This document shows, piece by piece, positions 77 to 41,619 of a stretch of 42,539 bases of DNA. The translations under genes and the position numbers were made by a program. The stretch is from the IMG/VR virus record IMGVR_UViG_3300045988_141277, positions 1 to 42,539 of that record, one strand, 5' to 3'. Each line of letters begins with the position of its first letter. Position 1 is the stretch's first letter. The DNA comes from a virus. The notes beneath the pieces were generated by a model. The model searched no databases. It saw nothing but the letters and a program-made list of their open reading frames with translations, and was not told the DNA's origin.

Positions 77-97
77 TTAATTTTAATTAAAATAAAA

Positions 98-124
98 AGG
101 ACTAGAGTTATTCTAGTCCTTTTC
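98..124. terminator. intrinsic terminator of the plus-strand accessory operon (A-run upstream, T-run downstream)
   Basis: AGGACTAGA (98..106) pairs with TCTAGTCCT (112..120), followed by TTTT. Confidence 0.75.
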
Positions 125-217
125 TGCAAGCAATTTTATAATTACATATATTAAGTTTTAATCCTTGTTTTAATGGATATTGCTTGCTCTTATATTATAG
201 CACATATTAAAAATAGA

Positions 218-250
218 AGCTAGAAGATCTCTATACCTTCTAGCTATTTT
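218..250. terminator. bidirectional intrinsic terminator downstream of the endolysin gene
   Basis: AGCTAGAAG (218..226) pairs with CTTCTAGCT (237..245). The stem is flanked by an A-run and a T-run. Confidence 0.7.
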
Positions 251-2022: not shown

Positions 2023-2050
2023 AAAAAAGACTAGAAATTAATCTAGTCTG
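2023..2050 (-). terminator. intrinsic terminator of the acyltransferase moron
   Basis: AGACTAGA (2028..2035) pairs with TCTAGTCT (2042..2049). The U-run lies on the minus strand. The hairpin overlaps the stop codon. Confidence 0.7.
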
Positions 2051-3056
2051 TAATAGCTTGTCTTCTTGATGTAAATTTTGCTACAATATTACTCCACAAA
2101 TATGCCACTATCATAGCTAATAAATATGCAATAATATTTAATACTATATGGTATTTATCTATAACTATTATTTTTTCTGAAAATGATAAAATCCATAATA
2201 TTTTTTCATGAAATAAATATATTTCTAAACTATATATTCCTAAAAATGTTAATAGTTTAAATTTACCATTGCTAAATTTATCTAGTATCTTTGTTGCTAA
2301 TAAGCAGATACTTAAAGATAGTGGAATATAAACATAATATTTTAAAGCAAATGGAATATAAATAACATCTGGATTTACAATTAGTAAACTAACTATCAAA
2401 CTGATAATAGCAAAAAAATAAATTATCTTACTGTTTAGAGATATTTTTTCTTTATTTACTATAATATTCCCTATATAAAGACCTATTATAAAAATAGGTA
2501 TTCTACATATAAAAATTAATAAATAGTCTAAAATATTATCTAACATTGTAAATCTTATCAATAATCCTAAAACAATAAAAAATAAACTTGATATAACTGT
2601 AACTTTTTTAGGATTTTTATTCATAAAATCTAAATAAAAAGGTGTAATTAGATATAAAACTAATATAGCTGATATAAACCACCATGTTATGTTTCCTTTT
2701 ATCCAAAATCCTAAAGTTGTTACTCCTAAAAAAATATCTATTATTTTACCTTTAAATACTAACGTAAATGCGCAATACCATACTATTGCAACTGGAATAA
2801 ATGTAGGTAAAATTCTTAATACTCTTTTCTTATAAAAATATTTTTTATCGTTATTTTTTGAATAGGAGAAATATAGACCTATTCCAGATAATAATAAAAA
2901 TATATCTACCCCTACATCTCCAATATCTTTTAAACTCCTTATAATATTTATGTTCTTAACATCAATGCCTGTATGGAATATTAATATTAATAACATAGCT
3001 AAGCCCATTAATTGTGTTCTATACTTACTTAATAAACTAATTTTATTGTCATCCAT
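2043..3056 (-). CDS. integral-membrane acyltransferase family 3 (O-acyltransferase), lysogenic-conversion moron
   Basis: About 10 predicted TM helices. The N-terminal motif LMGLAMLLILIFH is typical of Acyl_transf_3. The start was moved to the ATG at 3056, which is preceded by AAAGGGGGTG (the ORF track gives 3077). Confidence 0.75.
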   Translation of the reverse strand: MDDNKISLLSKYRTQLMGLAMLLILIFHTGIDVKNINIIRSLKDIGDVGVDIFLLLSGIGLYFSYSKNNDKKYFYKKRVLRILPTFIPVAIVWYCAFTLVFKGKIIDIFLGVTTLGFWIKGNITWWFISAILVLYLITPFYLDFMNKNPKKVTVISSLFFIVLGLLIRFTMLDNILDYLLIFICRIPIFIIGLYIGNIIVNKEKISLNSKIIYFFAIISLIVSLLIVNPDVIYIPFALKYYVYIPLSLSICLLATKILDKFSNGKFKLLTFLGIYSLEIYLFHEKILWILSFSEKIIVIDKYHIVLNIIAYLLAMIVAYLWSNIVAKFTSRRQAITD

Positions 3057-3075
3057 ATATACACCCCCTTTTATC

Positions 3076-3104
3076 ATTATAATAAAAGCGAGTGTATTTT
3101 TCTA
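3076..3104 (-). promoter_or_regulatory. candidate sigma-A promoter of the acyltransferase moron
   Basis: The minus strand reads TAGAAA-17nt-TATAAT directly upstream of the RBS. Confidence 0.4.
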
Positions 3105-16791: not shown

Positions 16792-18204
16792 CATTATCTT
16801 ATATCTAGGCTCTTTATCCTAGAACTCTTACTTTCATAAGAGGATGGGACTATATCATCACCTTTAACTTAATAGTAAGGTGTTCGGCGCTCGTGGGAGA
16901 AATTATTATTTGCCTATTCATTCTCCTAGTCTCTGAACCTTCCATGTACTTTTACGGCTTTCCATGGCTTGGTTGCTGATTAGCATATTAATATTAATTT
17001 ATGGTATTAAAAAAACACCCTTTAAAGAGTGTTTTCTTTTTTATTATTTATAAATTCAATATATTGTTCTTTTGTATTGTCTCCCATTCCGTATTTAATA
17101 TGGAAATATCTATGACATTGCTTGCAAAGTGTAACTCCATTGTTTATATCAGTTCTATGCTCCTTGTCCCAGTTGTAACTATTAAGATGGTGTGCAACTA
17201 AGTCTCCACCTCTTTTACCACAATATTGGCAAGTATAATTATCCCTTTTATAAACACCATAAACCCATTTTTTATATCCTTCTATGATTCTTCCTTTTTC
17301 TCTTTCTTCTTGAGTTTTTCCCGGATTCCACATTTTATTTTTACTTCCTCTTATTTTTTCTCCTTTGCCATAGTTAGGATTATTTTCACCCTTTAATATT
17401 TCCTTTTGGTGGTTTGATTTACATTCTTGTGAACAATATACATTTTTATTATTTTTTATTTTACATTTTAGGATAGTGAATTCTTTAGAACAATAAGAAC
17501 ATCTAACCTTTACAGTTGCATTTTTATAGTTAGGATTATTTTCACCCTTACCAGTTTGTTTTTGATGTTCATATTTGCACTCCTGAGAACAATAGTGATG
17601 TTTACTTCTTTCGTAAGTACTTTTTGTTACACTGATTTCTTTTCCACAATAACTACATTTTATAGTTATTCTATTTGTCATCGATTTTACTCTACATTCT
17701 GAACTACAATACTTTTGCGAACTTTTACGTGGTTTAAATTTTGTTTTACATATAGGGCATATTTTTTCTTTTGTTTTTATTTTTGAACAATATCCACACT
17801 GTCTTTTTTGTCTTTTATCTTTTCTCATAAAATCAGAATACCTAACTTGAAAAACTTCGCCACATCTACATTGAACACTTAGTTTTTCTTGGTTTCCATT
17901 ATATTCTCTAGATAATAATTTACAACCACTTCCACTATCAATTTCTATAAATTTTTTAACTTCTTCATAAGTTAATTTTTTAGACATAACAAAAACACCT
18001 CCGACAGTATTTTCAATTTATCCGATTATTAAATTTTTATTAAATAGGGAAGAAAGCTCGGATAACTTTCTTATCGCTAAGGCTCGCGACTTCCTTAACT
18101 ATCCCTATATTTATTATACCATAAATTACAAATATTAACTTAGCCTTCCAGCAATTCACCGAATATTTTTTGAATAGTATTTCTACTAAACCGACCAATA
18201 TTTT
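16792..18204 (-). mobile_element. group I intron 2 (IA2-like) carrying an HNH homing endonuclease ORF
   Basis: On the minus strand: P element AAUUGCUGGAAGG (18144..18156), Q AAUCAGCAAC (16972..16981), R GUUCAGAGACUAGG (16925..16938), S GAUAUAGUCC (16847..16856). The 5' exon ends GACU and pairs with GGUC. The last intron nucleotide is G. Confidence 0.8.
17022..17987 (-). CDS. intron-encoded HNH homing endonuclease with tandem zinc-ribbon modules
   Basis: C-terminal HNH motif GGDLVAHHLNSYNWDKEHRTDINNGVTLCKQCHRYFH. Three to four repeats of CxxC...YCSxEC. RBS GGAGGTG. Confidence 0.85.
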   Translation of the reverse strand: MSKKLTYEEVKKFIEIDSGSGCKLLSREYNGNQEKLSVQCRCGEVFQVRYSDFMRKDKRQKRQCGYCSKIKTKEKICPICKTKFKPRKSSQKYCSSECRVKSMTNRITIKCSYCGKEISVTKSTYERSKHHYCSQECKYEHQKQTGKGENNPNYKNATVKVRCSYCSKEFTILKCKIKNNKNVYCSQECKSNHQKEILKGENNPNYGKGEKIRGSKNKMWNPGKTQEEREKGRIIEGYKKWVYGVYKRDNYTCQYCGKRGGDLVAHHLNSYNWDKEHRTDINNGVTLCKQCHRYFHIKYGMGDNTKEQYIEFINNKKENTL

Positions 18205-18309: not shown

Positions 18310-18571
18310 CTAAACTTCATTGTCTAGGCTCTTTATCCTAGAACTTAGGTTTCCCTAAGAGTTGGACTATTTCTTTACCTTCAACTTCACTTGTTAAGGT
18401 AGTGGATTTCGTGGATATTTCAACTGTTCTAGTTTACTTTATCTAGTCTCTAAACCTTCTATATATCCCTATATAGATTGGTAATTGATTAGCATATCTT
18501 TTGACTTAGCTTTCCAATTTTAACCCACTATTTTTTACTATAAATTTCTTTATAGCCGACCATGTATGTTT
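18310..18571 (-). mobile_element. group I intron 1 (262 nt, no ORF), paralogous to intron 2
   Basis: R GGUUUAGAGACUAGA (18442..18456). S AAAUAGUCC (18364..18372, revcomp of plus ggactattt). The 5' exon ends GGCU and pairs with GGUC. The terminal nucleotide is G. GNRA-capped P2, P6 and P9 helices covary with those of intron 2. Confidence 0.8.
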
Positions 18572-19189
18572 AGCCATATATTGCATTGCTTGGCCCACTT
18601 GACTAGCGCTAAATGTAGTAGCAGCTCCTAATTCTCTAGCTTTTGCAACTAGCTGGTCAAATTCAGTTCCTACACTTCCAGCTATTGTAGCAACTGTTTT
18701 CATTTGTGATTCAAAGTTTGCTCCAGTTGTTATAAGACTTGAAAGATTAAAATCAAATCCTGTTAACTCACTAAAAGCATCTTTGACTGCATTTATCGAG
18801 GTGAGCATACCTTGAAACACAGGGGAGACTGTATCTTTTATGTTGTTAAGCCCTTCAAAAAACCTCTGTTTTCCAGCATCATATAACTTTTTAGTAGCAA
18901 CAGTTAAAGCAGCCACAACTACAAGGGCTTTTGCTGGTCCAGGTAATGCTTTAAATACTTGTCCTAAATTAGATGCTTTAGTTTTAACTTCTTCTAGCTT
19001 TTTGCCAAAGTCAGAAGCTCCTAATGCATCACTCAATTTACTATTGCCAGTCGCCTTTTTAATGCTTTCTGACATATCCTGAATTGATTTTCTAGCATCT
19101 TGCATTTTTGTTTTGAAGGAAGCTATATCAGCATTAATCTTTACATTTAAAACTTTAGTTGCTATTTTCACCACCTCCAAATTTTTCAA
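18572..19189 (-). CDS. tape measure protein, exon 1
   Basis: It ends ...ATTFSASQVGQAMQYMA. The remaining 22 codons of track ORF 18506..19189 are intron sequence. The exact start is uncertain because the track start is a TTG. Confidence 0.75.
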
Positions 19190-19442
19190 ATAAATTATTT
19201 ATATATGCCAAGTTTTCTTCTCTTTGTTTTTTACTTACTTTATGAGCTTCTTTTTTACTCTTAGCACTCTCAAAAGGATTGATAGGCTTGAATTTATCCC
19301 CTCCAAATGCCATTCCTAAAGCATTTTGTAAGCAACATAGACTTAAGTTATATTGCTCTTGTTGTTCTTTTTTATAGCCTTCTAGTGCTAAATTAGCTTC
19401 ATATATAGTTAGATGCCAAAAAGAAGAAGGTGGCATTTTCAT
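19155..19442 (-). CDS. tail assembly chaperone, -1 frame extension (gpT-like part of a G-T fusion)
   Basis: The frame stays open upstream to the slippery site at 19493..19499. It lies between the major tail and TMP genes. Confidence 0.7.
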   Translation of the reverse strand: MKMPPSSFWHLTIYEANLALEGYKKEQQEQYNLSLCCLQNALGMAFGGDKFKPINPFESAKSKKEAHKVSKKQREENLAYINNLFEKFGGGENSN

Positions 19443-19489
19443 ACCACCTACTAACTTTTTATATAGATTCTCAATTAGCTCTTTGAGTT

Positions 19490-21334: not shown

Positions 21335-21655
21335 TTATAACATCCTTAGCTTCTTTATTCTTGTATTGTTTGCCTTATATTGTTTTAGCAGTGGTTTATA
21401 CTCATAAAAATCATCAGACTTGTAAGAAGTCGAAAGGACATCTATTTTTTCCGTAGATATCCCTTCACTTCCTAATCTTCTGTATCTTTTTATGGCTACT
21501 TCCTCAGCTATAAATTCAAGCTCAGTGGGTATTGTAGGGCTTTCTATATACACACTCATGTAATTTATAGCATCTGACAATAAAATAGCCAACAATTCAT
21601 CTTGTGAATCATCGGCTTGCAAACCTAATTTTATTTTTATCTTAGAAATATCCAT
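21335..21655 (-). CDS. gp6-like head-tail connector protein
   Basis: Assigned by its position immediately downstream of the capsid gene. 106 aa. Confidence 0.55.
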   Translation of the reverse strand: MDISKIKIKLGLQADDSQDELLAILLSDAINYMSVYIESPTIPTELEFIAEEVAIKRYRRLGSEGISTEKIDVLSTSYKSDDFYEYKPLLKQYKANNTRIKKLRML

Positions 21656-21667
21656 TTAAATTACCTA

Positions 21668-22582
21668 TTAAGCAGCTGATTTTTTAACGCATATTTGTAT
21701 CGCATCAACTCTTTTGTTTAAGATAAATACATCTTCGAATGATTCTTCAAAGTATACATATTTACCTTGTGATAATGCACTTGGTGGTTGAAGTTGTGCG
21801 AATGAATAAGAAACTATAGGTAATATAGCACTTGGATGCAATAATATCATTGCTATATCTTTAGCAGTTGATTTAGCTACAAATCCTCCATCAGTTTGTC
21901 CAGATGTTTTACCATTATTAAATGTATATTCTGTTTTAAAAAGAGCTGTTGGTACAGAAACTATATCAACTTCTTCTATTCTTGATACATTTCTAGCTAG
22001 TTTTTTATCTCCGTTGTTTCTAACTATAGCTATAGCATTGTCAATTAAAGTTTTTGTATATGTATCGCAATATAAAACCCTTCCACTTACTGGCACTAAT
22101 GCTTCATCCATAGCATCCATCATAGCATCAAATTTAGTCAATACTGTATTTGCTGTTAAATCAGCAGTTTCAGCAGTTATTGCTTTTTGTGCATTTCTTA
22201 AACTATATATAGTAGAGAACATCATTGCATCTAGCTCAGGAAACTTTTTAGTTTCATTCATTACTTTTGTAATGTTGCTTATAGATGCTACCATATTAGT
22301 TTGATTTACATCTTGTGGATGTACTAATGTTTGCCAAATTCTATGGTTAGTAAGTGTTTTAGTTTCCCATTCATTTGAGAAGTTTTGAGAGAAATCACCT
22401 ATTTTAGTTCTATCTCCGTCAACTCTACCTCCAGTAGATAAAAGTGGTATTTTTATAGTCTTTGCATCTACTATTTTGTATTTTCTTGTATTTTCGTTGC
22501 TCCATAATGCTCCTGAGTATAAGACATATGGATAAGCATTTGCAAGCTCTCTGCTATAAGCTTCTGCATAATTTACTGTCAT
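21668..22582 (-). CDS. major capsid protein
   Basis: 304 aa, following the scaffold gene. It has a strong RBS. Confidence 0.75.
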   Translation of the reverse strand: MTVNYAEAYSRELANAYPYVLYSGALWSNENTRKYKIVDAKTIKIPLLSTGGRVDGDRTKIGDFSQNFSNEWETKTLTNHRIWQTLVHPQDVNQTNMVASISNITKVMNETKKFPELDAMMFSTIYSLRNAQKAITAETADLTANTVLTKFDAMMDAMDEALVPVSGRVLYCDTYTKTLIDNAIAIVRNNGDKKLARNVSRIEEVDIVSVPTALFKTEYTFNNGKTSGQTDGGFVAKSTAKDIAMILLHPSAILPIVSYSFAQLQPPSALSQGKYVYFEESFEDVFILNKRVDAIQICVKKSAA

Positions 22583-25628: not shown

Positions 25629-26879
25629 CTATATTCCTAAATCAAGTTTTTCTGATTTAATTCTATTTTTCATCTTTGTACTTTCCATAGCATACCTTAG
25701 TGCATCCATTAAATGGTTATAGTCATCTATTGGTTTATTTAATACAACTCCATCTTTATTATCCCAAACGTAGTTATTTAACTCTATCAATGTATTTTCA
25801 CATTTAGGATGTACATATATCTTATAGTCTTGTATGTTCGCTATGCCATTTAAAATAGAATCTTTTCCTTTTAATGCTGCTTTTATCCTTCTTATGCCTT
25901 TTTTCTTTATATCATCAATACTTTTAGGTTCTGAGCTATCGGCTATAATAGTTTCTTTTGCATATCCTTTATATTTAATCATAGAAGCTATATCTGAGTT
26001 GCTCATAGCCTTTTGATAATGTTCATCAAATATATATAATAAATTCTGTTCTTGGTTAACTAAGATACATATAAAAGCTGTTGGGTCATTTGTATAACCA
26101 AAGTCAAGTCCGAAATATGCATTAACACCTTCTTGCTTGCTTATTTCTTTATAATCGAACTCTAATTCTTCAAAGTTTTCATATACAAGGCCTTCAGCTA
26201 TTCCCCAATCTCCTAAGCCTTCTATGTTGTATCTTCTAGGATTATTCTTTTTCATTTTAGCGAATATTCTTCTGTCATCTTCACCTAAGAACTCATTACA
26301 TTTGTAATTTGTTGTTAAAGCTAATATATCTTCATCTTTCACATCAAAAAATCTTTTCTTTAACCAGTGTTTTTCACTCCAAGGGTTAAATGTTAGAGTT
26401 ATTTGTTTAAAATATCCTGGAGGTAATTCACCTCTTATAGACATATCAACTTTATTAAAAGAATCTTCGTCCATTATCTGGAATGCTTCTTCAAACCAGC
26501 ACCAACATAAATATCCAATTTCTACTGTTATAGATGTTATAGACATTGGATCATCTAATCCTCTAAATAAGATTTTCTGTCCTGTAGGTAAATAAGTAGC
26601 TTCTAATGGTGATTTACTAAATTTCCATAAATGTGATACTCCTAAATTATTAGTTGCCCACTTTAATTGGGTCCAAGTTGAATCCTTATGAGTATTAAAT
26701 ACTCTTCTTATTACCAAAGTGTTAGCTAATGGATATTGCATCATTTTGTATATTATCCATTGTGCATTTGTAGTAGATTTTTTACTAGCTCTGCCACCTT
26801 TTACAATCCTATATCTTCCTTTGAAGTTCCAAAATGTTTTATATCCTTTGCCTATCTTCTTAGAAATATCAATCTTCAA
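25629..26879 (-). CDS. terL: terminase large subunit (PBSX/Terminase_3-like)
   Basis: Walker-A-like KGGRASKKS. The start was moved to the TTG at 26879, preceded by GGAGAGG (the track ATG at 26915 overlaps terS by 47 nt). Confidence 0.85.
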   Translation of the reverse strand: MKIDISKKIGKGYKTFWNFKGRYRIVKGGRASKKSTTNAQWIIYKMMQYPLANTLVIRRVFNTHKDSTWTQLKWATNNLGVSHLWKFSKSPLEATYLPTGQKILFRGLDDPMSITSITVEIGYLCWCWFEEAFQIMDEDSFNKVDMSIRGELPPGYFKQITLTFNPWSEKHWLKKRFFDVKDEDILALTTNYKCNEFLGEDDRRIFAKMKKNNPRRYNIEGLGDWGIAEGLVYENFEELEFDYKEISKQEGVNAYFGLDFGYTNDPTAFICILVNQEQNLLYIFDEHYQKAMSNSDIASMIKYKGYAKETIIADSSEPKSIDDIKKKGIRRIKAALKGKDSILNGIANIQDYKIYVHPKCENTLIELNNYVWDNKDGVVLNKPIDDYNHLMDALRYAMESTKMKNRIKSEKLDLGI

Positions 26880-27315
26880 GGTTATCCTCTCCAACAAATA
26901 TAACTTGATTAACATCAGCTTCTATTTTTTCAGTATATAAGCCATATCTTTTACCTAGAAGTTCAGCACATTTATTAGAATCTTTTATAGATATTTTTTT
27001 CTTAACCATTTGAGGCTCACTTGTAAACTCGCCTTTATTCACCATAACTACAACTTCTTCTTCTAATTCCTGTCGCATACCTTTTGTTAAATATTCTAAA
27101 ATTTCCGTTGCATCTGCAATTCTATTATTGCTTATCTCCTCCATTTTTTCTTTTATATATTTTTTTACCGAGTCTTTTCCGAGTAACTTTCTTGCATTAG
27201 CTTCTGCTACCTCTCTTTTACTTGCTTTATACCCAGCTTTAATATATGATTCAGTAGCATTGCCTAACTTAATATAATATTCTGCAAAAGCTTTTTGTTT
27301 TATAGTTAATCCCAC
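26869..27315 (-). CDS. terS: terminase small subunit
   Basis: The N-terminus LTIKQKAFAEYYIKLGNATESYIKAGY is typical of the Terminase_2 HTH. It lies upstream of terL. Confidence 0.8.
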   Translation of the reverse strand: MGLTIKQKAFAEYYIKLGNATESYIKAGYKASKREVAEANARKLLGKDSVKKYIKEKMEEISNNRIADATEILEYLTKGMRQELEEEVVVMVNKGEFTSEPQMVKKKISIKDSNKCAELLGKRYGLYTEKIEADVNQVIFVGEDNLED

Positions 27316-27330
27316 AATGCCACCTCCTTG

Positions 27331-27768
27331 TCATTCTATTCTGGACATAATTAACTTTTCGCACTGCTCTCCTTCATGCTCTTTAGCATGGCATCTGCTG
27401 CATAGTGTTATACCATTATTTATATCAACTCTACCTTTATAATAATCTGCCCAATGTATGATATGATGTGCTTGTAAATTTTCTATCTCTCCGCATTTTA
27501 CACATTTATACTCATCTCTTTTAAAAACAGCTTTCTTCCATTCTCTTACTCTTGGGTCATTTCTATCTTTAACTAATAAATCATCTTTTAATAAATTTCT
27601 CCATCCAGGAAGGTAATGTTTCAATAATAAAGTAGCTGCTTTTATTCTATGCAATTCTATTTTTTCTTCTGTTATCATAATTGCTAATGCATCAAGCACT
27701 ATATTAAATTCTTCTTTAGTCCAATGTATTTCAGATACTTTACCATTTTCGTTATATTTTAGTTTCAC
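27331..27768 (-). CDS. terminase-associated HNH endonuclease
   Basis: CVKCG...LQAHHIIHWADYYKGRVDINNGITLCSRCH is an HNH motif. The gene is adjacent to terS. Confidence 0.85.
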   Translation of the reverse strand: MKLKYNENGKVSEIHWTKEEFNIVLDALAIMITEEKIELHRIKAATLLLKHYLPGWRNLLKDDLLVKDRNDPRVREWKKAVFKRDEYKCVKCGEIENLQAHHIIHWADYYKGRVDINNGITLCSRCHAKEHEGEQCEKLIMSRIE

Positions 27769-28031
27769 TTAATACCACTCCTTTCTAATTCTAATAATTT
27801 ATTTCTATATCTATTATCATTCGTTAATCTAATAAGACTTTCTATATCTCTTTTACTTAGCTTATCGTCTATCTCTCTTTTTATAGCCATAATAACCAGT
27901 ATCTTAGCTTTATAAAAATTATTTACATGTGTATGTCCGTTTTCAAATTTCTTGTTTGTATTATGTACAACAAATCCGTCACTACATCTATAAATTGAAT
28001 ACTCTTTTCTTTGAAATATTTTTCTACTCAT
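27765..28031 (-). CDS. hypothetical protein
   Basis: 88-aa ORF, translationally coupled to the HNH gene. Confidence 0.5.
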   Translation of the reverse strand: MSRKIFQRKEYSIYRCSDGFVVHNTNKKFENGHTHVNNFYKAKILVIMAIKREIDDKLSKRDIESLIRLTNDNRYRNKLLELERSGIK

Positions 28032-28058
28032 TTAGATCAACTCTTTCTTTGCACAACA

Positions 28059-28083
28059 AAAGAGCCCTTCATGGGCTCTCTTT
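28059..28083. terminator. intrinsic terminator ending the intergenic RNA candidate
   Basis: AGAGCCC pairs with GGGCTCT. On the minus strand the stem is followed by CUUUUGUUGUG. Confidence 0.65.
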
Positions 28084-28440
28084 ACTTTAAACTAATAAAT
28101 CAGGGTATGAGTTAAATAAAATTAAAATATGTTTCTGTTGTTGTATGATAGTAATTACAATTAGCAAGTTGTAGGATTCGAACCTACATCGTTGGGGGCG
28201 ATTTCCATTACTTGCACATTGCTGAGGTTTTACCCCCAGCCATTTTCTGTCATAACCAAGTTGTTAATTTGTATATTCTTAATACTTAAGGAGGACACAA
28301 GTCTGTGCCAAGAAAAAACTGTACGTTAAAGAACAACTATAATGTTTGTCAAATAGGTTACCAAGCTATCTGACAACTTAATAAGAGTTCGTAAAGAAAA
28401 CAACCTTTTTATTAGAGTTTCTCTATACTATCATTATATT
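28084..28440 (-). ncRNA. candidate structured non-coding RNA (unknown class)
   Basis: 445-nt ORF-free gap with GC-rich helices in an AT-rich genome. There is an 11-bp hairpin (28346..28376), a GCUGGGG/CCUCAGC hairpin (28221..28240), a possible TTTTCA-17-TATAAT promoter (28433..28461), and a terminator at the 3' end. Confidence 0.45.
28164..28215 (-). ncRNA. tRNA-like minihelix (canonical T-arm + 6-7 bp acceptor-like stem, no D-arm and no CCA)
   Basis: The minus strand reads GCAAGUA-AUGGAA-AUCG[CCCCCAA]CGAU-GUAGG[UUCGAAU]CCUAC-AACUUGC. The T-loop is UUCGAAU. Confidence 0.4.
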
Positions 28441-28477
28441 ATCGGTAATCCCCTATGAAAACCCCACATATTCCCTA

Positions 28478-28963
28478 TTAAATCCCCAACGCTTCAACTC
28501 CCCACAATAAGATATTTAATTTATTTAATACCTCTTTTGCCCATCTTGCTGGAGTGTTTTTGCCTGTATTAAGTCTTTCGGCTATTTCTTCAAATGTAAT
28601 TTTTTCTATGTAATACATATGAAAAGCATCGTATATGTAATAAGTTCCATTTTCTTCGTATTCATCAGCTAATATTTCTAATGATATATCTATACAAGAA
28701 ACCATTTGTGCTGTTCTTGCTTTTGTTCTAAGTACACTGTTAAGGAATATATCATTTTCTTCTAGCGCATCTTGTAATTCTTCTCCAAAATATCCTTTGA
28801 AACCATCGCTATTAACTTTTTCTATATGATTTTTTAGTTTGTCGTAGTTTTTCATTAATAGTTTAGTATTGTGTAATCTTTTATCTTTTTGTTGTTTTTT
28901 TATTTCAAATACTACTTCCTTAGCTAATTCTTTTGCTTGTTCACTTACGTTTAATGTTGCCAT
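28478..28963 (-). CDS. putative late-gene transcriptional activator (ArpU/RinA-like, sigma-70 region-4-like HTH)
   Basis: C-terminal HTH ITFEEIAERLNTGKNTPARWAKEVLNKL. It is the last early gene before the packaging module. Confidence 0.5.
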   Translation of the reverse strand: MATLNVSEQAKELAKEVVFEIKKQQKDKRLHNTKLLMKNYDKLKNHIEKVNSDGFKGYFGEELQDALEENDIFLNSVLRTKARTAQMVSCIDISLEILADEYEENGTYYIYDAFHMYYIEKITFEEIAERLNTGKNTPARWAKEVLNKLNILLWGVEALGI

Positions 28964-39794: not shown

Positions 39795-41321
39795 ATGTAT
39801 GCAATGTATTTAAGGAAAAGCCGTGCTGATGATAAGGATATTCCATTAGAAAAGGTCCTAAAAAATCATTACAATATGCTAACGGAATTAGCTGACAAGT
39901 TAAAAATACAGATAGAAGAAGAAAATGTATTTCGAGAAATAGAAACTGGAGATAGTATTTCTATCCGTCCAAAGATGCAAGACCTACTAGAAAAAGTATC
40001 AGAGGGATTATATGAAGGTGTTTTTTGCACAGAATTATCAAGGTTATGTAGAGGTAGTAAGATAGACCAGGAAATTGTATCTAGTACCTTTACTGCTGCG
40101 GAATGTAAAATAATTACACCAAGTAAGACTTATGACCTTGCAAATAATGAGTTCGATGAAGAAATGGTCGACTTCGGACTGTTCATGTCTAGGAGAGAGT
40201 ATAAAACTATTACTAAACGTATGCAACGAGGTAGAGAACAATCTGTAAAACAAGGTAAATACATAGGTTCTATTCTTCCTTATGGCTATAATAAAGAGAA
40301 ATTAGAAGGAGAAAATGGCTTTAGGTTAGTTATAAACGAAGAAGAAGCACATATAGTCAGATTAATATTTAAGTGGTTTTTAGAAGATAGTGCTGGAGCT
40401 AGTATAATAGCGAAAAGGCTTAATCAAGGCGGTTATCCTTCCAGAAGCGGTCGTGTATGGAGCTATAGTTCAGTAAAAAATATATTAACAAGCAATGTAG
40501 TAGCTGGATATCTTAAACATGGAGAAAGAAAATATAAAAAATATATAGATACAAAAGGTAATGTAAAAAAATCTAGACCAGTAAATGCTGCTGTTGAATA
40601 TTATAAAGGACTGCATGAGGCTATTATACCTTTAAGTGACTTTGAGAAAGTGCAAGATATATTAAATTCTAGAAAGCAGCATAAGTCTAACTTTGATTTA
40701 CCACTTAGTAATCCGCTTGCTGGATTAATAAGATGCTCTGAATGCAATAGAGTTATGGTAAAAAGGAGATGCGCTCAAGGTGATTTCTTATATTGTTCTA
40801 CTACTGGTTGTAAAAATATAGGTTCTTATCTAAATAGAGTTGAAGAACATATTTTACAGGCGTTATCAAATACATTATCTGATTATGAATATTATGTAGA
40901 TAATTATGAGCAAGAAACGATAAAAGAAAAAAGAAATGTAGACAATGATCTAAAAAGAATTGAAAAAGAAATTGAGAAACTAAATAAGCAATTTGAAAAA
41001 TGCTGTACATTCTTAGAACAAGATGTATATACTATAGAAATATTCAAGGATAGGACCAGTAAAATAAAAGATAAGATTAGAATACTAGAAGAAAATAAAA
41101 AAGTATTAGAAAAAGAATTTGGCGACGATAAAGTTATAAAAATAAAAAAACTAATACCTGAGCTAGAAAATGTATTAAAAAATTATAATACCCTTAGTAT
41201 AGAAGGCAAAAACGAATTGCTAAAAAGCATTATAAAAGAGGCTATATATTCTAAAAAGAAAAAGTGTAAAAAAGGCAGCAATGAGGATTACTTTGAGTTA
41301 GAAATTACACTAAATATATAA
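39795..41321 (+). CDS. int: large serine recombinase (integrase)
   Basis: N-terminal resolvase motif YLRKSRAD, a recombinase domain, the zinc ribbon CSECNRV...CSTTGC, and a long C-terminal coiled coil. Confidence 0.9.
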   Translation: MYAMYLRKSRADDKDIPLEKVLKNHYNMLTELADKLKIQIEEENVFREIETGDSISIRPKMQDLLEKVSEGLYEGVFCTELSRLCRGSKIDQEIVSSTFTAAECKIITPSKTYDLANNEFDEEMVDFGLFMSRREYKTITKRMQRGREQSVKQGKYIGSILPYGYNKEKLEGENGFRLVINEEEAHIVRLIFKWFLEDSAGASIIAKRLNQGGYPSRSGRVWSYSSVKNILTSNVVAGYLKHGERKYKKYIDTKGNVKKSRPVNAAVEYYKGLHEAIIPLSDFEKVQDILNSRKQHKSNFDLPLSNPLAGLIRCSECNRVMVKRRCAQGDFLYCSTTGCKNIGSYLNRVEEHILQALSNTLSDYEYYVDNYEQETIKEKRNVDNDLKRIEKEIEKLNKQFEKCCTFLEQDVYTIEIFKDRTSKIKDKIRILEENKKVLEKEFGDDKVIKIKKLIPELENVLKNYNTLSIEGKNELLKSIIKEAIYSKKKKCKKGSNEDYFELEITLNI

Positions 41322-41590: not shown

Positions 41591-41619
41591 TTGACTATTG
41601 GTAACCAATAGTATATTAT
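41591..41619 (+). promoter_or_regulatory. promoter TTGACT-17-TATTAT with a 19-bp perfect palindromic operator in the spacer
   Basis: The palindrome ACTATTGGTAACCAATAGT (41594..41612) spans the -35/-10 spacer. Confidence 0.65.

What the first reader, a model, noticed from the sequence alone, without database searches (positions are those of the whole stretch)
28052..28461. Terminator-bounded structured RNA candidate with a tRNA-like T-arm/acceptor minihelix upstream of the packaging module
This is a 445-nt ORF-free gap between the late-activator-like gene and the packaging genes. On the minus strand it has a possible TTTTCA-17-TATAAT promoter (28433..28461). It also has an 11-bp hairpin UUGUCAGAUAG/CUAUUUGACAA (28346..28376) and a GC-rich hairpin GCUGGGG-GUAAAA-CCUCAGC (28221..28240). 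Then comes a 52-nt element (28164..28215) with a canonical T-arm GUAGG-UUCGAAU-CCUAC stacked on a 6-7 bp acceptor-like stem (GCAAGU/ACUUGC), a 4-bp stem with a 7-nt loop CCCCCAA, no D-arm and no CCA. An intrinsic terminator follows (28059..28083). Mutually exclusive pairings exist: GGGGG with CCCCC versus the GCUGGGG hairpin, and AAGUUGU able to pair with either of two ACAACUU copies. GC-rich helices stand out in a genome this AT-rich. Possible roles include a tRNA mimic or decoy, a processing signal, or a cos/pac-associated element. I cannot assign it to a known RNA family by eye.
Basis: partly seen in the sequence, partly recalled or inferred. Interest (0 to 1): 0.65.

Follow-up and report, generated by a model that had tools for sequence, protein, structure and literature searches.

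The report
tRNA-like leader RNA of phage late genes
The gap holds a real, conserved, folded RNA of about 375 bases that starts every late (packaging, head, tail, lysis) transcript of a group of Clostridium phages; it contains a miniature tRNA look-alike, ends in a transcription stop signal just before the first late gene, and matches no described RNA family.

Summary
About 60 related phage and prophage loci share them. Compensatory base changes support hairpin H1, hairpin H3, all three stems of the tRNA-like element (TLS) and the terminator: 11 of 45 pairs on a MAFFT alignment, and 15 of 22 on a model-fitted one. ARAGORN finds no tRNA or tmRNA, and no Rfam 15 family matches.

Context shows what it is: the 5' leader of the late operon. 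It sits between the late-activator gene with its 11-bp repeat promoter and an 88-aa first late ORF. The same RNA follows two different activator types (sigma-like or RinA-like) and precedes three terminase types. That excludes a cos/pac role.

The TLS has a 6-bp acceptor stem, a UGG connector in place of a D-arm, a short variable hairpin, and a 6-bp T stem with a UUCGAAU loop. U(-1)/G(+1) is invariant. TLS plus GNRA-capped H3 occur only together with the 88-aa ORF. A shorter sister leader keeps H1 and the terminator but lacks all three.

Best reading, inferred and not shown: a cis-acting leader that controls read-through of its terminator into the late genes, with the TLS as a handle for RNase P/Z-type enzymes or the 88-aa protein.

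The parts
28447..28505 (-). Activator-binding repeat region of the late promoter. RGGG motifs at 28487, 28476, 28465 and 28454 are spaced exactly 11 nt apart, with a further one at 28503. The region overlaps the 3' end of the regulator gene.
   Evidence: L021 has the same arrangement. RinA-type loci have TTCCGTAAAAG x4.4 with period 11 at the same place. Ltr activators bind DNA repeats upstream of terS (PMC3753634).
28433..28461 (-). Late promoter core, TTTTCA-17-TATAAT. The inferred transcription start is near 28426.
   Evidence: A -10 box stands at the equivalent place in every upstream context. The start site is inferred, not mapped.
28381..28413 (-). Conserved pyrimidine-rich 5' segment of the leader, AAAGGUUGUUUUCUUUACGAACUCUUAUU. 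The mosaic boundary of the conserved module lies at about 28413.
   Evidence: It is nearly invariant in 41 sequences. It may pair with the 5' flank of the terminator (-12.9 kcal/mol here), but this is inconsistent across variants.
28346..28376 (-). Hairpin H1: 9-11 bp stem with the conserved 9-nt loop YUGGUAAM, which resembles a D-loop.
   Evidence: Four unrelated stem sequences carry the same loop: main type, L048/L072, L021 and L073. Five pairs show changes on both sides.
28294..28309 (-). Hairpin H2, GGCACA/UGUGUC.
   Evidence: Replaced by GAUGCAUA/UAUGCAUC in L001 and L016. G-C, G-U and A-U alternate at one pair.
28278..28294 (-). Single-stranded CCUCC motif (28294-28290) followed by the small hairpin CUUAAGUAUUAAG.
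   Evidence: CCUCC is kept in both long and short leaders. Its role is unknown.
28221..28240 (-). Hairpin H3: 7-bp G+C-rich stem with a GNRA-type cap, GUAAAA.
   Evidence: On A6 all cells are paired and 5 of 7 pairs change on both sides. Cap variants are GUGAAA, GUAA and GAAA.
28164..28215 (-). D-armless tRNA-like element (TLS). Acceptor 28215-28210 pairs with 28169-28164. Connector AAUGGAAA at 28209-28202. Small hairpin at 28201-28189 with loop CCCCCAA. T arm at 28188-28170 with loop UUCGAAU at 28182-28176. U(-1) is at 28216.
   Evidence: In L073 the acceptor is GCAGAC/GUCUGC and the T stem is UAUAAG/CUUAUA. CM R1 scores 107.5 bits here, the only strong hit in the window.
28084..28163 (-). 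Variable, A/C-rich, weakly structured spacer between the TLS and the terminator.
   Evidence: Its length and sequence differ between loci: about 80 nt here and about 210 nt in L073.
28052..28079 (-). Intrinsic terminator, AGAGCCC-AUGAA-GGGCUCU followed by UUUGUUGUG. It ends about 20 nt before the ATG of the first late ORF.
   Evidence: Three different hairpin sequences sit at the same place, each followed by a U-run.
27765..28031 (-). 88-aa first late ORF (phrog_9079), co-inherited with H3 and the TLS.
   Evidence: It is absent together with H3 and the TLS in short-leader loci. No Pfam, NCBIfam, PDB or BFVD match.
28478..28963 (-). 161-aa late-activator-like gene (phrog_1558) with weak similarity to sigma-70 region 4.
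   Evidence: Homologues are annotated as sigma-factor-like in Clostridium, Clostridioides and Butyrivibrio phages.

Best explanation
The gap encodes the 5' leader of the phage late operon, about 375 nt from about 28426 to about 28053 on the minus strand.

Proposed sequence of events:
1. The activator encoded just upstream binds 11-bp repeats and fires the late promoter.
2. Every late transcript therefore begins with this folded RNA. It consists of a conserved 5' segment, hairpin H1 with a D-loop-like loop, H2, GNRA-capped H3, and a D-armless tRNA-like element.
3. The leader ends in an intrinsic terminator about 20 nt before the first late ORF.
4. That terminator is also the only one available to stop read-through from the early operon.

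I propose that the folded leader acts in cis to decide how much transcription passes this terminator into the roughly 26 kb of late genes. This would resemble put of HK022, EAR, or the leader/conAn system of pLS20.

The tRNA-like element with H3 is an accessory module of the long form. Its most likely role is as a handle for enzymes that recognise the tRNA elbow plus a 12-bp acceptor/T stack. RNase P would cut at the invariant U(-1)/G(+1), and RNase Z would cut after the acceptor. The co-inherited 88-aa protein is the alternative partner.

Shown: the RNA fold, its conservation, its place between the late promoter and the late genes, and its independence from activator type and terminase type.
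Inferred: the transcript ends, read-through control, and cleavage or binding at the tRNA-like element.
For: - Structure: 96.9% of cells are paired and 11 of 45 pairs are compensatory on MAFFT alignment A2, against 0-5 in slid controls. On A6, 15 of 22 pairs are compensatory. H1 has four different stems around one conserved loop.
- Strand: conserved G-U pairs fit only the minus strand.
- Promoter: 11-nt phased repeats plus a -10 box lie directly upstream. A different repeat set appears where the regulator is RinA-like, TIGR01636. This matches Ltr activators, which bind repeats upstream of terS (PMC3753634).
- There is no room for a promoter between the terminator and the ATG, and no other terminator lies between the regulator gene and the late genes.
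- The terminator is kept in place with three different sequences.
- The spacer from the TLS to the terminator varies from about 80 to about 210 nt. This fits action on the polymerase rather than a fixed alternative hairpin.
- The same leader precedes three terminase types.
- The short sister leader has the same promoter-H1-terminator layout.
- H3, the TLS and the 88-aa ORF are present together or absent together.
- In the TLS, the 6+6 bp stack, the UGG connector, the UUCGAWU loop and the U(-1)/G(+1) junction are invariant.
- Precedent: pLS20 has a 456-nt leader with a terminator just before a small first gene of an antitermination system (PMC13401043, PMC8191782).
Against: - There are no transcript data.
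- No conserved antiterminator pairing was found. The pairing of the 5' segment with the terminator flank is strong in the window (-12.9 kcal/mol, 1 of 300 shuffles) but weak in most variants.
- Coding-strand terminator-like hairpins inside the late region are not enriched over shuffles.
- The leader has no sequence or Rfam similarity to EAR or any other family.
- Cutting at the tRNA-like element would sever H1-H3 from the polymerase. That would conflict with a put-like tethered mechanism.
- The 88-aa protein has no recognisable fold. Its relatives in phiCTP1 and phiCD211 occur without the RNA.
- The window terminator has only four consecutive U and may simply be leaky.
Confidence: 0.4

Rival explanations
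1. It is a free-standing, abundant small RNA that acts in trans and ends at the terminator. It could be a tRNA decoy against tRNA-targeting host defences, or a base-pairing RNA that uses its C-rich loops on Shine-Dalgarno sequences. Late genes would then be expressed only by leakage through the terminator.
For: - It has a promoter, a compact conserved fold and a terminator.
- Most variants have the unpaired C-rich motifs CCUCC and CCCCC.
- The T loop and elbow geometry are kept, as a protein decoy would need.
- C-rich loops targeting SD sequences are known for Firmicute sRNAs (own knowledge).
Against: - The C-rich loop of the TLS is replaced by UUUU/UUUA in L073.
- The anticodon-like arm varies in stem length (3-5 bp) and loop length (4-8 nt), so no specific tRNA is mimicked.
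- The acceptor sequence and discriminator base are not conserved.
- The late genes have no promoter of their own after the terminator, so the RNA is a leader in any case.
Confidence: 0.25
2. The tRNA-like element is purely an RNA-processing punctuation mark. RNase P and RNase Z cut it out. This separates early read-through RNA and the 5' leader from the late mRNA and sets the mRNA's 5' end and stability. There would be no effect on termination.
For: - A 12-bp acceptor/T stack, a canonical T loop, a GG connector, and invariant U(-1)/G(+1).
- No encoded CCA, as in many Firmicute tRNA genes that RNase Z processes (own knowledge).
- Precedents from own knowledge: the C4 RNA of P1/P7 and the CI RNA of P4 are matured by RNase P from operon leaders. 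mascRNA is cut from MALAT1.
Against: - It does not explain H1, H2, H3, the conserved 5' segment or the terminator.
- The short leader works without any tRNA-like element.
- Cleavage is untested.
Confidence: 0.2
3. It is a DNA-level packaging signal (cos or pac) or another protein-binding DNA site next to the terminase genes.
For: - It lies upstream of HNH, TerS and TerL.
- In PhiS63 and the Butyrivibrio phages, the homologous regulator gene lies near the genome end.
Against: - The same sequence precedes Terminase_2+Terminase_3, Terminase_2+Terminase_6N and Terminase_4+TerL_ATPase modules.
- Stems change while loops stay fixed. Pairs are kept through G-U, which is meaningless in duplex DNA.
Confidence: 0.03
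4. It is a decaying phage tRNA gene, or a tRNA-derived attachment-site remnant, with no function of its own.
For: - Weak match to the Rfam tRNA model, 15.4 bits, E = 3.
- Phages often carry tRNA genes or the 3' halves of tRNA genes.
Against: - The D-arm is missing in every copy. The remaining stems are kept by compensatory changes across lineages as different as the window and L073.
- It is always fused to H3 through the AAYRU linker.
- The phage integrase is a large serine recombinase at 39795-41321, far from this site.
Confidence: 0.03

Closest known systems
tRNA-like domain of tmRNA, and D-arm-lacking mitochondrial tRNAs
   Same: An acceptor stem stacked on a T arm with a canonical T loop. 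The D-arm is replaced by a short single-stranded connector that keeps a GG (own knowledge of those RNAs; anatomy here).
   Different: There is no tag reading frame and there are no pseudoknots. ARAGORN tmRNA mode finds nothing. There is no encoded CCA and no conserved identity elements. The anticodon-like hairpin varies in stem and loop length. The element is embedded in an mRNA leader.
Leader of the pLS20 conjugation operon (cATT zipper attenuator) with the conAn bipartite antitermination system
   Same: A tightly controlled promoter of a very long operon on a Gram-positive mobile element. A leader of several hundred nucleotides. An intrinsic terminator just before a small first gene. An RNA element and a small protein inherited together (PMC13401043, PMC8191782).
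   Different: There is no sequence similarity. In pLS20 the antitermination RNA (conAn2) lies after the protein gene, whereas here the RNA lies before it. No tRNA-like domain is described there. A zipper-type pairing is not consistently present here. Function here is untested.
put RNAs of phage HK022 and EAR RNA of Bacillus (RNA-only processive antiterminators)
   Same: Folded RNA elements just downstream of a promoter and upstream of terminators that act in cis (as summarised in PMC8191782).
   Different: They are much smaller (two hairpins, or about 120 nt). They have no T loop and no tRNA-like module. No Rfam match was found here.
Phage lambda pR'-6S RNA-tR' arrangement
   Same: The late-gene regulator gene is followed by the late promoter, a short non-coding transcript and a terminator that must be passed to express all late genes (own knowledge).
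   Different: In lambda the read-through factor is the protein Q, loaded at the promoter, and the 6S RNA has no known fold-dependent role. Here the regulators are Ltr/sigma-like activators and the RNA itself is under strong structural selection.
C4 RNA of P1/P7 and CI RNA of P4 (regulatory RNAs cut from operon leaders by RNase P); mascRNA of MALAT1
   Same: tRNA-like features inside a longer transcript serve as an RNase P (and RNase Z) processing site (own knowledge).
   Different: Those RNAs act by base pairing to repeated target sites in the same leader. No conserved complementary repeats were found here. Cleavage here is untested.

Membership tests
tRNA (Rfam RF00005; ARAGORN) | Detected by ARAGORN, or reaches the Rfam gathering score | tested here: not met
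   ARAGORN finds 0 genes in the window and in L073. RF00005 scores 15.4 bits against a gathering score of 29, E = 3.1.
tRNA (Rfam RF00005; ARAGORN) | T arm with a UUCRANY loop closed by G53-C61, stacked on the acceptor stem to give 12 bp | tested here: met
   UUCGAAU or UUCGAUU loop. A 6-bp T stem plus a 6-bp acceptor stem, kept by compensatory changes.
tRNA (Rfam RF00005; ARAGORN) | D-arm (3-4 bp stem with loop) | tested here: not met
   Only the 8-nt connector AAUGGAAA or AUUGGAUA lies between the acceptor and the next hairpin in all copies.
tRNA (Rfam RF00005; ARAGORN) | Anticodon arm: 5-bp stem and a 7-nt loop with U33 | tested here: not met
   The stem is 3-5 bp and the loop 4-8 nt. Loops seen are CCCCCAA, UCCCCCAU, UCCUCC and UUUA. 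U33 is not conserved.
tmRNA | tRNA-like domain plus a tag-peptide reading frame and pseudoknots | tested here: not met
   ARAGORN tmRNA mode finds nothing. No Rfam tmRNA-clan match at E <= 10.
Any Rfam 15 family (including Y RNA-like, EAR and the large prophage RNAs) | Covariance-model match at the gathering score or a convincing E-value | tested here: not met
   The gathering scan of the window finds only a group I intron and a CRISPR repeat elsewhere. The best E-value in the gap is 0.68, on the wrong strand.
Ltr (RinA super-family) activated late promoter | [quoted passage not shown] | tested here: met
   The gene order fits. The window has 11-nt phased RGGG repeats. Sister loci have a RinA TIGR01636 regulator with TTCCGTAAAAG x4. 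Binding itself is not testable here.
Intrinsic terminator | G+C-rich hairpin directly followed by a U-run on the transcribed strand | tested here: met
   28079-28061 plus UUUGUUGUG. Three different hairpin sequences sit at the same position in relatives, each followed by U4-5. Efficiency was not tested.
Processive antitermination RNA (put, EAR, conAn2) | Lies in cis between the promoter of a long operon and its terminators | tested here: met
   Position shown.
Processive antitermination RNA (put, EAR, conAn2) | Raises read-through of downstream terminators when present in cis | not testable with these tools
   Needs reporter or in vitro transcription assays.
Riboswitch or classical attenuator | The sensor fold overlaps the terminator through a conserved alternative (antiterminator) pairing | tested here: inconclusive
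   The spacer between the conserved core and the terminator varies from about 80 to about 210 nt, and the terminator sequences differ. The 5'-segment/terminator-flank duplex is significant in the window only.
cos/pac packaging site | The sequence is specific to, and co-inherited with, one terminase type | tested here: not met
   The same RNA precedes three terminase families.

The most novel reading that the evidence does not exclude
A previously unknown class of RNA-based late-gene control in Gram-positive temperate phages. The leader is self-contained and carries tertiary-structure modules: a T loop, a GNRA cap and a D-loop-like hairpin. It would use a tRNA mimic to recruit a host tRNA-handling factor (RNase P, RNase Z or another elbow binder) or its own 88-aa partner. 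The outcome would decide whether RNA polymerase passes the terminator that insulates late genes from early transcription.
Probability: 0.25. Interest if true: 0.8.

Novelty: new variant of a known kind. Interest (0 to 1): 0.6.

Why it matters
Late-gene control in Gram-positive temperate phages is currently explained by the Ltr/RinA activators alone. Here a strongly conserved, complex-folded leader with a terminator lies between the Ltr promoter and the late genes. That would add an RNA layer to the switch that commits the cell to packaging and lysis.

It would also add a bacterial-virus example to the short list of tRNA mimics embedded in larger RNAs. The combination is easy to test: a promoter, 375 nt of RNA, a terminator and an 88-aa ORF.

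One cultured strain, Clostridium sp. 1001270J_160509_D11, carries a divergent copy that could be studied directly.

Tried and rejected
1. tRNA or tmRNA gene: ARAGORN finds none, and Rfam scores are below threshold.
2. Known RNA family: nothing in Rfam 15 at the gathering score or at E <= 10.
3. Cultured-phage homologue by DNA: no blastn match in 50,697 phage records.
4. cos/pac site: rejected because the same RNA precedes three terminase types.
5. attP or tRNA remnant: rejected because of covariation and because the integrase is a distant serine recombinase.
6. Small leader peptide: the AUG at 28243 is AUA in many copies.
7. Plus-strand peptide behind the AGGAGG at 28290-28295: its region shows compensatory hairpin changes, so it is RNA structure and not coding.
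8. GGGGG/CCCCC and AAGUUGU/ACAACUU alternative pairings: no covariation, and they are absent in some variants.
9. Long-range pairing of the 5' segment with the Shine-Dalgarno region (4 pairs suggested by RNAalifold): not kept in the recombinants L045 and L052.
10. Zipper-like pairing of the 5' segment with the terminator flank: inconclusive.
11. Fold of the 88-aa protein: the model has pLDDT 79.6, but there is no PDB or BFVD match at E < 0.3.
12. Wider family search:
   - A loose H1 pattern in IMG/VR gave only chance hits.
   - A strict TLS pattern in the species-representative genomes gave none.
   - A metagenome scan added only another L073-type copy.
   - L189, from a GC-rich contig, scores 37.9 bits. 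It may be a distant relative or an odd tRNA-Sec-like gene.
Full report
**1. What is in the sequence**

On the minus strand, the 446-nt ORF-free gap 28032-28477 lies between two genes:
- a 161-aa gene at 28478-28963 (phrog_1558, weak sigma-70 region 4 similarity);
- an 88-aa ORF at 27765-28031 (phrog_9079), followed by HNH (27331-27768), TerS (26869-27315), TerL (25629-26915), portal and head genes.

- TTTTCA-17-TATAAT at 28461-28433;
- hairpin H1 at 28376-28346;
- hairpin H3 at 28240-28221;
- the 52-nt tRNA-like element (TLS) at 28215-28164;
- a terminator stem at 28079-28061 followed by a U-run.

The 410-nt stretch folds better than shuffles, with z = -3.05. ARAGORN finds no tRNA or tmRNA in the window. 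The Rfam 15 gathering scan finds nothing in the gap. A permissive scan gives only chance-level matches, including the tRNA model at 15.4 bits against a gathering score of 29.

**2. Conservation and covariation**

Sources of related loci:
- Exact and degenerate pattern scans of IMG/VR returned 48 loci of one family.
- A protein search with the regulator returned 10 loci.
- Look-ups of relatives of the 88-aa ORF returned 10 more loci from ENA and Logan assemblies.
- Two Clostridium genomes also carry it.

The nucleotide identity of the gap is 76-93% in most loci. L048, L051 and L072 are clearly more divergent, and L073 much more so. L073 is from Clostridium sp. 1001270J_160509_D11.

On a plain MAFFT alignment of 41 distinct sequences (A2), my structure of 45 pairs gives these counts:
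- 96.9% of cells are paired.
- 11 pairs change on both sides, against 0-5 when partners are slid by 1-3 columns.
- 65 cells are compensatory.

A covariance model of H3 plus the TLS (R1) behaves as follows:
- It hits the window once, at 107.5 bits, and finds all long-leader loci.
- L073 scores 50.1 bits, E = 3e-9.
- Ordinary phage tRNAs score 12-15 bits (L055).

On the model-fitted alignment A6, 15 of 22 pairs change on both sides and 97.6% of cells are paired. An alignment fitted to the model leans towards the structure, but the MAFFT result points the same way.

Examples of the compensatory changes:
- H1 has four unrelated stems around one loop YUGGUAAM:
  - GUCAGAUAG/CUAUUUGAC
  - GAUUGGCUGG/CCAGUUAAUC
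  - CUAGAAG/CUUCUAG
  - AGUAGAAAG/CUUUCUACU
- The acceptor is GCAAGU/ACUUGC in the window and GCAGAC/GUCUGC in L073.
- The T stem is UGUAGG/CCUACA, UACAGG/CCUGUA or UAUAAG/CUUAUA.
- H3 is GCUGGGG/CCUCAGC or GCCAGGAG/CUCCUGGC.

Widely conserved G-U pairs would be C-A mismatches on the other strand (H1 106-124, H3 287-298, acceptor 313-357 in A2). The functional molecule is therefore the minus-strand RNA.

**3. Anatomy of the tRNA-like element**

From 5' to 3':
- A 6-bp acceptor stem.
- An 8-nt connector, AAUGGAAA (AUUGGAUA in L073), that replaces the D-arm but keeps GG.
- A short hairpin whose stem (3-5 bp) and loop (4-8 nt) vary.
- A T arm with a UUCGAAU or UUCGAUU loop.
- The 3' acceptor strand.

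The loop of the short hairpin is C-rich in most copies. In L073 it is UUUA, so the C-run is not a defining feature.

The U before the classical 5-bp T stem pairs with the A after it in most copies. This gives 6+6 = 12 stacked pairs, the same length as 7+5 in a tRNA.

The base before the acceptor is always U and the first acceptor base always G. From established knowledge, U(-1)/G(+1) is the favoured bacterial RNase P junction. No CCA is encoded. The discriminator base and the acceptor sequence vary. Mimicry of one particular tRNA, or aminoacylation, is therefore unlikely.

H3 sits 5 nt upstream, joined by the linker AAYRU. Its cap is GUAAAA, GUGAAA, GUAA or GAAA, that is, GNRA-type. The H1 loop CCUGGUAAC resembles a tRNA D-loop; this is my reading, not a test. 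T loops and GNRA caps are typical of RNAs with a defined three-dimensional fold.

**4. Context: the leader of the late operon**

Directly upstream of the conserved block, the window has RGGG motifs at 28487, 28476, 28465 and 28454. They are exactly 11 nt apart and are followed by TATAAT.

In many sister loci the upstream gene is instead a RinA-family regulator (DUF722, TIGR01636). There the repeats are TTCCGTAAAAG, 4.4 copies with period 11, again followed by a -10 box.

[quoted passage not shown] They bind a DNA repeat region upstream of terS to turn on the late operon (PMC3753634, abstract). The homology between loci starts at about 28413, just after the promoter, and runs through the 88-aa ORF to about 27782. 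The RNA and the ORF therefore form one mosaic module that is combined with either regulator and promoter cassette.

Downstream, the module is followed by different genes and by three terminase types:
- Terminase_2 + Terminase_3 in the window;
- Terminase_2 + Terminase_6N in L060;
- Terminase_4 + TerL_ATPase in L064.

This rules out a cos/pac role. The window is a whole temperate phage. It has an amidase and a holin at the left end, CI-like and Cro-like genes, and a large serine recombinase at 39795-41321. A tRNA-derived attachment site at 28.2 kb is therefore not credible.

**5. The terminator and the short sister leader**

Only about 20 nt separate the terminator's U-run from the ATG of the 88-aa ORF (28 nt from the foot of the stem). 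Late genes must therefore be transcribed through the terminator.

No other terminator lies between the regulator gene and the late genes. Early read-through must therefore also end here.

The terminator is kept at this place with three different sequences, each followed by U4-5:
- GAGCCC-N5-GGGCUC
- GGACCC-UAACUA-GGGUUC
- GRACCC-UUCG-GGGUUC

Five contigs carry a shorter leader of about 270 nt. It has the same promoter types, a related 5' segment, H1 with the same loop, a CCUCC motif, other hairpins and a terminator. It lacks H3, the TLS and the 88-aa ORF, and TerS follows directly (R1 finds no hit).

The core design is therefore promoter-H1-terminator-late genes. H3, the TLS and the 88-aa ORF form an accessory set that is present together or absent together.

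**6. Mechanism**

The distance between the conserved core and the terminator varies from about 80 nt to about 210 nt. I found no conserved pairing that would compete with the terminator:
- The best candidate is the conserved 5' segment pairing with the 5' flank of the terminator. It gives -12.9 kcal/mol in the window (1 of 300 shuffles as good), but only -4 to -9 kcal/mol, with z between -0.3 and -2, in most variants.
- A pairing of the 5' segment with the ribosome-binding region is lost in natural recombinants.

This argues against a riboswitch-type switch. It is compatible with an element that acts on the transcribing polymerase.

The closest described systems:
- The pLS20 conjugation operon has a 456-nt leader with a terminator just upstream of a small first gene. 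It also has a bipartite RNA-plus-protein processive antitermination system (PMC13401043, PMC8191782).
- The RNA-only antiterminators put and EAR, as discussed in PMC8191782.

I therefore commit, at 0.4, to this model. The leader controls read-through of its terminator in cis. It lets transcripts from the late promoter, but not early read-through, enter the late genes. The TLS serves as a handle for RNase P/RNase Z-type enzymes or for the 88-aa protein.

Weak points:
- There are no expression data.
- Internal terminators are not enriched in the late region.
- The 88-aa protein has no recognisable fold. The model has pLDDT 79.6 with three strands and three helices, and no PDB or BFVD match.
- Distant relatives of that protein in phiCTP1 and phiCD211 occur without the RNA.
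- Cutting at the TLS would detach H1-H3 from the polymerase.

The main rivals are a trans-acting RNA or decoy (0.25) and a pure processing signal (0.2). Neither excludes the leader role.

**7. Novelty and verdict**

There is no Rfam 15 match. No homologue was found in 50,697 deposited phage genomes by DNA search. My literature searches found nothing describing it.

The family is narrow. It occurs in temperate phages of Clostridium from gut-type metagenomes, and it is well supported. I rate it a new variant of known kinds (tRNA-like modules, and leader or antitermination RNAs), with interest 0.6. The fold is demonstrated by comparative evidence. The function is inferred.

Noticed in passing
window 18343-18579 (-) and 16825-17062 (-): Two group I introns lie inside the late structural region. 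The first scores 60.1 bits, above the Rfam gathering score. The second scores 40.4 bits (E = 4e-8), below it. Identical 20-nt hairpins TCTAGGCTCTTTATCCTAGA lie next to each, at 18323-18342 and 16804-16823.
   Followed up: partly
window 94-245 (-): After the lysin gene come, in order: a terminator (245-218), a TGnTATAAT-type -10 box (about 203-195), a single CRISPR-DR7-like repeat (191-155, 41.9 bits), about 30 nt, and a second terminator (124-94). The repeat sits inside a hairpin closed by GCAAGCAAU/AUUGCUUGC. No array is present in 1-2600. It could be a solitary-repeat RNA of the kind proposed to interfere with CRISPR systems.
   Followed up: partly
L021:3515-3800; also L194, L196, L198: A shorter sister leader of about 270 nt. 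It has the same late promoter types, H1 with the same loop, a CCUCC motif, a GAGGGAA/UUCCCUC hairpin, a UUAUGC/GCAUAA hairpin and a terminator. It lacks the tRNA-like part and the 88-aa ORF.
   Followed up: partly
L189:1040-1140 (IMG/VR 3300037504_000365, 63% G+C locally): A hairpin, then ACAU, then a D-armless tRNA-like element, in an unrelated gene context. R1 scores 37.9 bits and Rfam tRNA-Sec 30.5 bits (below its gathering score). ARAGORN finds nothing. It may be a distant relative or an unusual tRNA-like gene.
   Followed up: partly
window 27765-28031 (-): The 88-aa first late ORF has an almost invariant N-terminal half, MSRKIFQRKEYSIYR..DG..HNTNK.F..GHTH. It has no family or fold match. 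Relatives are the last gene before the genome end in Clostridium phage phiCTP1 (gp86), and sit in the replication region of the large C. difficile phages such as phiCD211.
   Followed up: partly
window 41594-41612 (+): The palindrome ACTATTGGTAACCAATAGT overlaps a promoter-like TTGACT-17-TATTAT at 41591-41619, beyond the recombinase gene. It is probably an operator or att-proximal site.
   Followed up: no
window 21587-21617 (-) and 19428-19449 (-): Terminator-like hairpins on the coding strand inside the late region. The first lies directly after the major capsid gene at 21668-22582.
   Followed up: no
window 2043-3077 (-): An acyltransferase (Acyl_transf_3) gene lies between the tail region and the lysis genes. 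It is a likely lysogenic-conversion (surface-modification) gene.
   Followed up: no
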